Of a stretch of DNA of 31,828 nt, positions 19,401 through 22,400 are shown one piece after another (positions within the stretch are counted from its first letter, which is position 1; each line of letters begins with the position of its first letter). Location of the stretch: UHGV virus genome UHGV-0107646, one strand, 5' to 3'. Source of the DNA: a virus. A program made the position numbers.

Positions 19401-22400
19401 GCGGAACGGTCAGAGAGATTGAGGTATGAGCAGAGTCACCGCGATTATCTCCGCTCTGGTTATCTGCATCATCGTCTGCCTGTCATGGGCTGTTAATCAT
19501 TACCGTGATAACGCCATCGCCTACAAAGACCAGCGCGATAAAGCCACATCTATCATCTCTGATATGCAGAAGCGTCAACGTGATGTAGCTGAACTCGACG
19601 CCAGATACACAAAGGAGCTTGCTGATGCTAACGCGACTATCGAAAGTCTCCGTGCTGATGTTTCTGCTGGGCGTAAGCGCCTGCAAGTCGCCGCCACCTG
19701 TGCAAAGTCAACGACCGGAGCCAGCGGCATGGGCAATGGAGAAAGCCCAAGACTTACAGCAGATGCTGAACTCAATTATTACCGTCTCCGAAGTGGGATC
19801 GACAGGATAACTGCGCAGGTTAACTACTTGCAGGAATACATCAAGACGCAATGCCTGAATTAATCCCTCTGTATCAAAAACGAGCTCAATTTGTTGGATA
19901 GTGAATGAAAATTTATATTGCCGGGCCAATGACGGGATATGAGAACTTTAATCGTGACGCCTTTAATAAAGAGGCAGATCGTTTGTCACGACATGGTCAC
20001 TCTGTCTTGAATCCAGCCACTTTGCCTAATGGTCTGACACAACGTGAATACATGGATATTTGCTTTGCAATGCTTCGTTGTGCTGATGCTATTTTGATGC
20101 TTCCTGGCTGGAAAGCGTCTGCTGGAGCAACTGCTGAGTATCATTACGCATACAAGATGGAGATGCCGGTATTCACTACGCTGAATTACCCGCCAGCTTG
20201 TTCCTCTGTAGCATAAAAATCTCTTTGTTTCTCGTTTGCGACCGTGGTCGCACATTAAATACCGCGCTGCATCGTCGCCGTATTTCCGCATTAACCATGA
20301 CCGTAGCCCGACGGGGAACTCCTCTGCGCGAGTGTGCGGGAATAATCAAAAACGATGCACACCGGGTTTTTACCGCGCTAATGATTCGCGGGTTTGTCCC
20401 TCATGCTCGCCAGTCCTGTGCGAGGGTGGAAGAAACCGGATATTAATGCAAGTGATAAACATTCTCATTTTCTCGGGTCCTTTCCGGCGATCTGACAGGC
20501 TACGGGGCGGAAGGCGCGCGGGTTTTCGCTATTTATGAAAATTTTCCGGTTTAAGGCGTTTCCGTTCTTCTTCTTCGTAACTTCATGTTTTTATTTAAAA
20601 CACCCCCTGAAAAGAAAGGAAACGACAGATGCTGAAAACGGGCTTTTTGGCCTTTGTCGTTTCCTTTCTCTGTTTTTGTCCGTGGAATGAACAATGGAAG
20701 TCAACAAAAAGCAGCTGGCTGATATTTTCGGTGCGAGTATCCGTACCATTCAGAACTGGCAGGAGCAGGGAATGCCCGTTTTGCGAGGCGGAGGCAAGGG
20801 TAATGAGGTGCTTTATGATTCTGCCGCCGTCATAAAATGGTATGCCGAAAGGGATGCTGAAATTGAGAACGAAAAGCTGCGCCGGGAAGTTGAAGAACTG
20901 CGGCAGGCCAGCGAGACAGATCTCCAGCCAGGGACTATTGAGTACGAACGCCATCGACTTACGCGTGCGCAGGCCGACGCACAGGAGCTGAAAAATGCCA
21001 GAGACTCCGCTGAAGTGGTGGAAACCGCATTCTGTACTTTCGTGCTGTCGCGGATCGCAGGTGAAATTGCCAGTATTCTCGACGGGATCCCCCTGTCGGT
21101 GCAGCGGCGTTTTCCGGAACTGGAAAACCGACATGTTGATTTCCTGAAACGGGATATCATCAAAGCCATGAACAAAGCAGCCGCGCTGGATGAACTGATA
21201 CCGGGGTTGCTGAGTGAATATATCGAACAGTCAGGTTAACAGGCTGCGGCATTTTGTCCGCGCCGGGCTTCGCTCACTGTTCAGGCCGGAGCCACAGACC
21301 GCCGTTGAATGGGCGGATGCTAATTACTATCTCCCGAAAGAATCCGCATACCAGGAAGGGCGCTGGGAAACACTGCCCTTTCAGCGGGCCATCATGAATG
21401 CGATGGGCAGCGACTACATCCGTGAGGTGAATGTGGTGAAGTCTGCCCGTGTCGGTTATTCCAAAATGCTGCTGGGTGTTTATGCCTACTTTATAGAGCA
21501 TAAGCAGCGCAACACCCTTATCTGGTTGCCGACGGATGGTGATGCCGAGAACTTTATGAAAACCCACGTTGAGCCGACCATCTGCGATATTCCGTCGCTG
21601 CTGGCGCTGGCTCCGTGGTATGGCAAAAAGCACCGGGATAACACGCTCACTATGAAGCGTTTTTCCAATGGTCGTGGCTTCTGGTGCCTGGGCGGTAAAG
21701 CGGCAAAAAACTACCGTGAAAAGTCGGTGGATGTGGCGGGTTATGATGAACTTGCTGCCTTTGATGAGGATATTGAACAGGAAGGCTCTCCGACGTTCCT
21801 TGGCGACAAACGTATTGAAGGCTCGGTCTGGCCAAAGTCCATCCGTGGCTCCACGCCCAAAGTGAGAGGCACCTGCCAGATTGAGCGTGCAGCCAGTGAA
21901 TCCCTGCATTTTATGCGTTTTCATGTTGCCTGCCCGCACTGCGGGGAGGAGCAGTATCTTAAATTTGGCGACAAAGAGACGCCGTTTGGCCTCAAATGGA
22001 CGCCGGATGACCCCTCCAGCGTGTTTTATCTCTGCGAGCATAATGCCTGCGTCATCCGCCAGCAGGAGCTGGACTTTACTGATGCCCGTTATATCTGCGA
22101 AAAGACCGGGATCTGGACCCGTGATGGCATTCTCTGGTTTTCGTCATCCGGTGAAGAGATTGAGCCGCCGGACAGTGTGACCTTTCACATCTGGACGGCG
22201 TACAGCCCGTTCACCACCTGGGTGCAGATTGTCAAAGACTGGATGAAGACGAAAGGGGATACGGGAAAACGTAAAACCTTCGTGAACACCACGCTCGGTG
22301 AGACATGGGAAGCGAAAATCGGCGAACGTCCGGATGCTGAGGTGATGGCGGAGCGGAAAGAGCATTATTCAGCGCCCGTTCCTGACCGTGTGGCTTACCT

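What the first reader, a model, noticed from the sequence alone, without database searches (positions are those of the whole stretch)
20505..20516. cosN 12-mer differs from the canonical lambda cohesive end while the flanking cos sequence matches
By alignment of the flanks (…CTACG | 12-mer | CGCGGGTTTTCGC…) the cohesive-end position reads GGGCGGAAGGCG, whereas the lambda cohesive end is GGGCGGCGACCT; the last six bases differ. Terminase Nu1/A here are lambda-type, so either terminase tolerates this cosN or the site is damaged and the prophage is packaging-defective.
Basis: partly seen in the sequence, partly recalled or inferred. Interest (0 to 1): 0.45.

Follow-up and report, generated by a model that had tools for sequence, protein, structure and literature searches.

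The report
Natural variant of lambda cohesive end
The unusual 12-base sticky-end sequence is real. It is a recurrent natural allele of the lambda packaging site, and its changes lie in the half that lambda terminase is known not to read, so the prophage is most likely packaging-competent and the finding is ordinary.

Summary
Window 20505-20516 reads GGGCGGAAGGCG. It aligns with lambda cos without any indel.

The rest of cos is intact: the CG dinucleotides flanking both nick positions, the left half GGGCGG, cosQ, the cosN-R3 spacing and R3. Nu1 is 179/181 and gpA 635/641 identical to lambda (DE3).

The allele is neither an error nor decay:
- It occurs at 167 places in 156 of 5,426 complete E. 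coli genomes, about 2% of lambda-type cosN sites.
- It occurs in 77 lambda-flanked IMG/VR contigs.
- It occurs in two named phage records, PhiR46_1 and YDC107_1.

Identical gpA and Nu1 proteins occur with both alleles, so the terminase has not co-adapted. At least ten other right-half alleles exist, including one-step neighbours. The left half is invariant in all 77 carriers.

This matches published genetics: bp 7-12 tolerate change, and N15, phiD326, Gifsy-1 and mEp213 vary there. Verdict: a functional natural cosN right-half allele. The "damaged cos" reading is rejected. Interest is low. Virion ends for this allele were not shown directly.

The parts
20475..20481 (+). cosQ heptamer GGGTCCT (packaging-termination element)
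   Evidence: Exact match at the lambda-equivalent position, 23 bp before the top-strand nick. The lambda cosQ coordinates are from my own knowledge. Conservation of a 7-bp cosQ is stated in PMC4669245.
20503..20518 (+). cosN: CG | GGGCGGAAGGCG | CG. The 12-bp cohesive-end sequence is 20505-20516. Inferred nicks: top strand between 20504 and 20505, bottom strand between 20516 and 20517.
   Evidence: Colinear with lambda cosN. Left half and both flanking CG dinucleotides are conserved. The right half differs at bp 7, 8, 9, 10 and 12. Nick positions are inferred by homology and were not measured.
20517..20553 (+). Spacer between cosN and cosB (I2 region); its length fixes the cosN-to-R3 distance
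   Evidence: Identical in length and sequence to lambda/DE3. The spacing requirement is described in PMC9026076.
20554..20569 (+). cosB R3 (Nu1/TerS anchor site; lambda bp 50-65), AGGCGTTTCCGTTCTT
   Evidence: Identical to lambda at the same offset from cosN. The extent of R3 is taken from PMC9026076.
20606..20627 (-). cosB R2 (inverted R repeat; core GGAAACG at 20618-20624)
   Evidence: R-core match in inverted orientation. Identical to lambda over the repeat core. The outer boundaries are approximate.
20655..20672 (+). cosB R1 (R repeat; core CGTTTCC at 20658-20664)
   Evidence: R-core match. Conserved against lambda. The outer boundaries are approximate.
20694..21239 (+). Nu1 (terminase small subunit, 181 aa)
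   Evidence: 179/181 identical to the lambda/DE3 Nu1. ORF.
21214..23139 (+). A (terminase large subunit gpA, 641 aa; nuclease, ATPase)
   Evidence: 635/641 identical to the lambda/DE3 gpA. ORF.

Best explanation
This is a working lambda-type cos site carrying a natural allele of the right half of cosN. Nu1 dimers bind R3/R2/R1 of cosB and anchor gpA. gpA then nicks each strand just 3' of a conserved CG dinucleotide, 12 bp apart. The top-strand nick next to the left half (GGGCGG) depends on sequence. The bottom-strand nick next to cosB is positioned by the Nu1-R3 anchor and is largely indifferent to bp 7-12. The variant bases are therefore cut normally and become a 12-nt 5' overhang, GGGCGGAAGGCG. 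Both ends of a chromosome come from the same duplex sequence, so they remain perfectly complementary and the injected DNA cyclises as usual. The allele behaves as a selectively near-neutral polymorphism that moves with the lambda-type packaging and head module between integrative lambdoid prophages and N15-like telomere phage-plasmids. Shown here: the sequence anatomy, the allele's distribution, and the lack of terminase co-variation. Inferred: the actual cleavage positions and the viability of this particular prophage.
For: (1) Anatomy: only bp 7, 8, 9, 10 and 12 differ. The left half, flanking CGs, cosQ, spacer and R3 are identical to lambda.
(2) Published genetics: mutations in bp 7-12 have minimal effect while left-half mutations are severe. 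[quoted passage not shown] Lambda terminase gives the same yield with cosN-lambda and cosN-N15. The flanking CGs and cosQ are conserved while bp 7-12 vary in N15, phiD326 and Gifsy-1 (PMC4669245). mEp213/LLS has GGGCGGCGCGCT (PMC12315714). The N15 record annotates GGGCGGCGTCCG as its sticky end.
(3) Recurrence: 167 places in 156 of 5,426 complete E. coli genomes, against 8,380 canonical places; 7 of 120 stretches in an allele-blind IMG/VR scan; 77 IMG/VR contigs with lambda flanks; and phages PhiR46_1 (host field ECOR13) and YDC107_1.
(4) No co-adaptation: among 36 variant-linked and 29 canonical-linked 641-aa gpA sequences, no residue discriminates the groups (largest frequency difference 0.30). 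Four identical gpA and four identical Nu1 sequences occur with both alleles.
(5) No sign of decay: Nu1-size ORF in 63/71 variant versus 80/93 canonical loci; gpA-size ORF in 36/48 versus 38/56. The 99.99%-identical RefSeq prophage has a complete int-to-stf gene set.
(6) Asymmetry in my own data: with the left half left free, 77 of 77 carriers have GGGCGG. Lambda-flanked sites show at least 12 right-half alleles, including one-step neighbours CAGGCG and AAGGCT.
(7) Annealing strength is preserved: 10/12 GC in both alleles, and nearest-neighbour dG37 of -17.8 versus -18.2 kcal/mol.
Against: No virion-end data for this allele were found. The paper behind PhiR46_1 could not be located, so its viability rests on the record's host field. 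The dedicated survey of natural cosN variation (Vahanian et al. 2017, Virology 509:140) is not held. I therefore could not check whether this exact allele, or a five-base combination, was tested there. The natural variants cited in the accessible literature differ at only 2-3 positions, whereas this one differs at 5, including bp 7 and 10. The window's cos also carries a private A-to-C change at 20584 in the R3-R2 spacer, the IHF I1 region; its effect is unknown.
Confidence: 0.85

Rival explanations
1. The site is a damaged cosN, and the prophage (and others like it) can no longer cut or package its DNA.
For: Five of 12 bases differ from the textbook cohesive end. No direct virion-end evidence for this allele was found.
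Against: The same 12-mer is fixed without further decay in 77 IMG/VR contigs and 167 places in E. coli genomes, across diverse backgrounds: 32 distinct gpA sequences among 36 carriers. Terminase ORFs are intact as often as in canonical elements. The prophage gene set is complete. Every element of cos known to be sequence-critical is unchanged. A named phage with a propagation host carries it. The literature says bp 7-12 are not read.
Confidence: 0.05
2. The variant cosN requires a co-evolved terminase with altered nuclease specificity, making it a distinct packaging specificity.
For: gpA here differs from lambda gpA at 6 residues, two of them (L439Q, I459V) in the C-terminal half.
Against: No gpA or Nu1 residue segregates with the allele. 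Four gpA and four Nu1 protein sequences are 100% identical between variant and canonical loci. Lambda and N15-hybrid terminases show no cosN specificity (PMC4669245).
Confidence: 0.03
3. It is a sequencing or assembly artefact at a GC-rich site.
For: None beyond its rarity, about 2% of sites.
Against: Identical sequence in hundreds of independent assemblies from different platforms and laboratories. The window is 99.99% identical to a finished RefSeq chromosome that has the same 12-mer.
Confidence: 0.01
4. The allele is functional but not neutral. With five mismatches to the common end, it defines a separate cohesive-end compatibility group. Chromosomes cut from mixed concatemers (one cos of each type) cannot cyclise, which would limit productive recombination or cross-packaging between co-resident lambda-type phages that share one terminase.
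For: A 2-base end mismatch already lowers yield about fourfold (PMC4669245). E. coli genomes carry up to 8 canonical lambda-type cos sites, so mixed infections are plausible. AAGGCG is by far the most common alternative allele (77 contigs, against 4 or fewer for each other allele). It is over-represented on plasmids (16 of 167 places versus 20 of 8,380).
Against: One-step intermediates exist (CAGGCG, AAGGCT, AGACCT, CGACCG), as expected for drift. The abundance of one allele can be explained by hitch-hiking with a successful phage-plasmid lineage. No test of fitness was possible.
Confidence: 0.08

Closest known systems
Canonical lambda cos (cosQ-cosN-cosB with Nu1/A terminase)
   Same: Same architecture, spacing, cosQ, left half of cosN, flanking CG dinucleotides and R3. 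R2 and R1 repeat cores are also present. Nu1 and gpA are 99% identical.
   Different: Bases 7, 8, 9, 10 and 12 of the cohesive end: AAGGCG instead of CGACCT.
N15 and phiD326 cohesive ends (GGGCGGCGTCCG)
   Same: Natural right-half variants. They share G at position 12, C at 11, and the sequence CGC after the nick. They are shown experimentally to be cut equally well by lambda TerL (PMC4669245; N15 record).
   Different: They differ from lambda at only 2 positions (9 and 12). N15 has its own cosB and TerS specificity, whereas the present site has lambda cosB and Nu1.
Gifsy-1 (differs at bp 8, 9, 11) and mEp213/LLS (GGGCGGCGCGCT) cosN
   Same: Further natural right-half alleles in phages with lambda-type terminase.
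   Different: Different bases, different hosts or head modules. For mEp213/LLS the end is described only as inferred/putative; how the Gifsy-1 end was determined is not stated in the text I read.
Engineered cosN right-half mutants of lambda (Xu & Feiss 1991, J Mol Biol 220:281)
   Same: They show that changes in bp 7-12, including C11G, have little or no phenotype, which is the mechanistic basis for tolerance (as summarised in PMC4669245).
   Different: These are laboratory mutations. I could not read the original paper, so I do not know whether this five-base combination was among them.

Membership tests
Lambda-like cos site (12-nt 5' cohesive ends; Nu1/gpA terminase) | cosN with conserved left half GGGCGG and a CG dinucleotide flanking each nick position | tested here: met
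   CG|GGGCGGAAGGCG|CG at 20503-20518. The conservation rule is from PMC4669245 and PMC9303873 citing Vahanian 2017.
Lambda-like cos site (12-nt 5' cohesive ends; Nu1/gpA terminase) | 7-bp cosQ upstream of cosN at the lambda spacing | tested here: met
   GGGTCCT at 20475-20481, colinear with lambda/DE3.
Lambda-like cos site (12-nt 5' cohesive ends; Nu1/gpA terminase) | cosB with R3 at bp 50-65, then R2 (inverted) and R1, with unchanged cosN-to-R3 spacing | tested here: met
   R3 is identical with no indel between cosN and R3. R cores are at bp 53, 114 (inverted) and 154.
Lambda-like cos site (12-nt 5' cohesive ends; Nu1/gpA terminase) | Adjacent terminase genes Nu1 and A of the lambda type | tested here: met
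   179/181 and 635/641 identity to lambda/DE3.
Lambda-like cos site (12-nt 5' cohesive ends; Nu1/gpA terminase) | Staggered nicking that yields 12-nt 5' overhangs in virion DNA | not testable with these tools
   Needs virion DNA end sequencing or in vitro cos cleavage.
Natural right-half cosN alleles (N15, phiD326, Gifsy-1, mEp213 class) | Differences from lambda confined to bp 7-12 | tested here: met
   Differences are at 7, 8, 9, 10 and 12 only. The left half is invariant in 77/77 carriers.
Natural right-half cosN alleles (N15, phiD326, Gifsy-1, mEp213 class) | Carried by viable phages and cut by an unmodified lambda-type terminase | tested here: inconclusive
   Indirect only. PhiR46_1 lists a propagation host. 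Identical gpA and Nu1 occur with both alleles. Prophages are intact. No plaque, burst or end-sequence data were found.
Distinct packaging specificity (as lambda versus 21 versus N15, set by cosB and TerS) | Divergent cosB R sites together with a divergent TerS recognition helix | tested here: not met
   R3 and the Nu1 N-terminus are identical to lambda, so this is lambda specificity, not a new one.

The most novel reading that the evidence does not exclude
GGGCGGAAGGCG is not just drift but a maintained second 'sticky-end type' among E. coli phages that share the lambda terminase. Chromosomes cut between unlike cos sites would carry five mismatches and fail to circularise. The allele would then act as a post-packaging isolation barrier, for example between N15-like phage-plasmids and co-resident integrative lambdoid prophages.
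Probability: 0.08. Interest if true: 0.4.

Novelty: new member of a known kind. Interest (0 to 1): 0.15.

Why it matters
It matters little for biology in general. It confirms, with population-scale data, the published rule that lambda terminase reads the left half of cosN and the flanking CGs but not bp 7-12.

Practically:
- Annotation pipelines and cos-finding tools should not require GGGCGGCGACCT.
- About 2% of lambda-type cos sites in complete E. coli genomes, and nearly half of those on plasmids, carry AAGGCG.
- Prophages should not be called packaging-defective on this basis.
- Cosmid or in vitro packaging work that mixes ends of the two types would give non-annealing ends.

Tried and rejected
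- The genome-contig scan with the 17-mer CGGGGCGGAAGGCGCGC was a mistake. None has lambda-type flanks, so host range outside E. coli remains unknown.
- The publication behind the PhiR phage set (PV3405xx) was not found.
- The exact 12-mer appears in no phage paper of the library.
- Vahanian et al. 2017 is not held. Only citing sentences could be used.
- A full MAFFT alignment of 510-bp cos regions timed out. A shorter one was inflated by divergent cosB types. I replaced it with ungapped column counts around cosN.
- I checked whether the equal record lengths of YDC107_1 and Lambda_2G7a (both 46,701 bp) meant a near-isogenic pair differing in cosN. They are unrelated phages.
- I considered a simple inversion as the origin of AAGGCG. 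The reverse complement of CGACCT is AGGTCG, so this does not fit.
- Ten of the 87 IMG/VR hits to the 18-mer lack lambda flanks. Most look like chance matches in GC-rich contigs and were excluded from the counts.

Full report
**Observation**

Window 20505-20516 reads GGGCGGAAGGCG, once in the window and never in 100 shuffles. The surrounding sequence is ...CGGGTCCTTTCCGGCGATCTGACAGGCTACG | GGGCGGAAGGCG | CGCGGGTTTTCGCTATTTATGAAAATTTTCCGGTTTAAGGCGTTTCCGTTCTT... It aligns to the cos region of lambda (prophage DE3, where the cos site is annotated) with no indel around cosN.

One detail needs correcting. The right-hand hexamer is AAGGCG against CGACCT, so five positions differ (C7A, G8A, A9G, C10G, T12G) and C11 is shared. 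There is no canonical cosN elsewhere in the window.

**Context**

- The window is 99.99% identical to a prophage in the finished chromosome NZ_AP022287.1.
- That prophage's RefSeq annotation shows a complete lambda-type gene set from int/xis through the structural genes to J, lom and stf. Only two minor pseudogenes are present, and they lie outside the packaging and structural genes.
- Immediately right of the site lie Nu1 (20694-21239) and A (21214-23139). They are 179/181 and 635/641 identical to the lambda/DE3 proteins.
- The other cos elements are in place: cosQ GGGTCCT at 20475-20481, an unchanged cosN-to-cosB spacer, R3 (lambda bp 50-65) identical at 20554-20569, and the R2 and R1 cores at the expected offsets.
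- The only part of cos that departs from lambda in a block is bp 7-12 of the cohesive end.

**Is it an error or a one-off lesion?**

No. I designed a 42-nt megablast query so that every 28-nt seed contains the whole 12-mer.

| Collection | Variant AAGGCG | Canonical CGACCT |
|---|---|---|
| Complete RefSeq E. coli genomes, places | 167 (151 chromosomal, 16 plasmid) | 8,380 |
| Complete RefSeq E. coli genomes, genomes | 156 of 5,426 | 4,474 |

- The variant is about 2% of lambda-type cosN sites.
- In an allele-blind scan of IMG/VR (ACGGGGCGG-N6-CGNGGGTTTTCGC), 7 of the 120 returned stretches carried it.
- Targeted scans found it in 77 contigs with lambda flanks.
- Two named phage records carry it, PhiR46_1 (PV340565.1, host field E. 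coli ECOR13) and YDC107_1 (CP025712.1).

**Does the terminase co-vary?**

No. From loci with enough downstream sequence I extracted 36 gpA proteins (641 aa) linked to the variant and 29 linked to the canonical end, plus 56 and 53 Nu1 proteins.

- No column separates the groups. The largest frequency difference is 0.30, at the I/V459 polymorphism.
- Four gpA sequences and four Nu1 sequences are 100% identical between variant and canonical loci.
- Mean between-group distance (5.9 residues) is no larger than within-group distance (6.3 and 4.8).
- Flanking DNA from -45 to +200 shows no linked change either. Only bp 7, 8, 9, 10 and 12 are fixed differences.

The same enzyme therefore serves both alleles.

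**Are carriers decaying?**

No. A Nu1-size ORF is present in 63/71 variant and 80/93 canonical loci. A gpA-size ORF is present in 36/48 and 38/56.

**Allele spectrum**

Scans that excluded the two common alleles showed that lambda-flanked cos sites carry many right halves:

| Right half | Count |
|---|---|
| CAGGCG | 4 |
| CAGACG | 3 |
| AGACCT | 2, plus phage PhiR70_1 |
| TGACCT | 2 |
| GAGCGT | 2 |
| CTGACG | 1 |
| AAGCGT | 1 |
| AAGGCT | 1 |
| CGACCG | 1 |
| CAACCT | 1 |

- CAGGCG and AAGGCT are one step from the variant. AGACCT, TGACCT, CAACCT and CGACCG are one step from lambda.
- When the left half was left free and the variant right half was fixed, all 77 hits had GGGCGG.
- The right half therefore drifts while the left half does not.
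- All alleles keep 9-11 G+C of 12. Calculated duplex stability is -17.8 kcal/mol for the variant and -18.2 for lambda, so annealing of the ends should be unaffected.

**What is known**

Feiss and colleagues (PMC4669245), summarising Xu & Feiss 1991, report the following:

- Many mutations in bp 7-12 have minimal phenotype, whereas symmetric left-half changes are severe. G2C lowers yield about 10-fold, while C11G has no effect.
- The asymmetry reflects anchoring of TerL by TerS bound at cosB, which makes bottom-strand nicking insensitive to sequence.
- Natural variation follows the same pattern: N15 and phiD326 differ at 9 and 12, and Gifsy-1 at 8, 9 and 11.
- The CG dinucleotides flanking the nicks and cosQ are conserved.
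- Lambda and N15-hybrid terminases give equal yields on cosN-lambda and cosN-N15.

The N15 record annotates GGGCGGCGTCCG as its sticky end. mEp213/LLS is inferred to have GGGCGGCGCGCT. A dedicated survey exists (Vahanian et al. 2017, Virology 509:140), but it is not in the library. A citing paper reports from it that the first four bases and the two bases on each side are conserved. The present allele obeys every one of these rules.

**Mechanism (inferred by homology)**

1. Nu1 binds R3/R2/R1.
2. gpA nicks the top strand between 20504 and 20505 and the bottom strand between 20516 and 20517, each 3' of a CG.
3. The 12-bp duplex is melted, giving 5'-GGGCGGAAGGCG overhangs that are self-complementary between the two ends of one chromosome.
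4. After injection the ends anneal and are ligated.

Nothing in this cycle requires particular bases at positions 7-12.

**What remains unproven**

- I found no virion-end or burst data for this allele, and no paper describing PhiR46_1.
- The exact 12-mer occurs in no phage paper in the library.
- Five simultaneous changes exceed the 2-3 seen in the natural variants cited in the literature I could read.
- For these reasons I put 0.85 rather than higher on 'functional, tolerated allele'.

**Rival readings**

- A damaged site (0.05), terminase co-adaptation (0.03) and artefact (0.01) are each contradicted by the data above.
- A non-neutral 'compatibility group' role (0.08) is not excluded. It is suggested only by the allele's dominance among alternatives and its roughly 40-fold enrichment on plasmids. 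Hitch-hiking with N15-like phage-plasmids explains both equally well.

**Verdict**

The feature is a further member of the known class of natural right-half cosN variants. Interest is low.

Noticed in passing
L351 (PV340565.1 PhiR46_1), L350 (CP025712.1 YDC107_1), L209 (NZ_LR883007.1); window 19426-31828: The named phages and the ~46-kb 'plasmids' that carry this cosN allele are N15-like telomere phage-plasmids. They have protelomerase, a RepA/primase and annotated telL/telR, and PhiR46_1 also has ParAB. Their cos, Nu1/A, head and tail module is lambda-type and 97% identical to the window's. The allele sits on plasmids in 16 of 167 places, against 20 of 8,380 for the canonical end.
   Followed up: partly
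L129 1722-1739 and L190 3611-3628 (IMG/VR metagenome contigs 3300042262_000022 and 3300042206_000209): A GC-rich, non-enterobacterial viral contig has the same 18-mer GGGCGGAAGGCGCGCGGG preceded by TCG. The site is intergenic, after a D5_N primase gene and 2.8 kb upstream of a gpA-family terminase (Pfam GpA_ATPase and GpA_nuclease, E about 1e-64). No cosQ-like GGGTCCT lies upstream. It could be a chance match or a distant cos site.
   Followed up: partly
window about 15575-16085: In the 99.99%-identical RefSeq prophage, an HNH endonuclease gene sits between two fragments annotated as NinF. This looks like a homing-type insertion splitting ninF (coordinates transferred from L127 15136-15642).
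   Followed up: no
L155 and L163 (IMGVR_UViG_3300045988_113976, 56,122 bp): One metagenomic viral contig holds two copies of the variant cos with identical flanks. This suggests a longer-than-unit-length (concatemeric or circularly over-assembled) phage genome.
   Followed up: no
L350 (CP025712.1) 32016-41466: The YDC107_1 record contains a mirror-image duplication of genes around the protelomerase. This is the pattern expected when a hairpin-ended linear plasmid is read through its telomere, so the deposited 46,701-bp sequence is probably partly a fold-back assembly.
   Followed up: no
window 20584: There is a private A-to-C change (lambda-equivalent bp 80) in the R3-R2 spacer, where the IHF site I1 lies. 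Lambda and PhiR46_1 both have A here. Its effect on IHF bending is unknown.
   Followed up: no
window 20514-20519: The T12G change creates the perfect palindrome GCG|CGC (a BssHII site), centred exactly on the inferred bottom-strand nick. N15 has the shorter CG|CG at the same place. This may be incidental.
   Followed up: no
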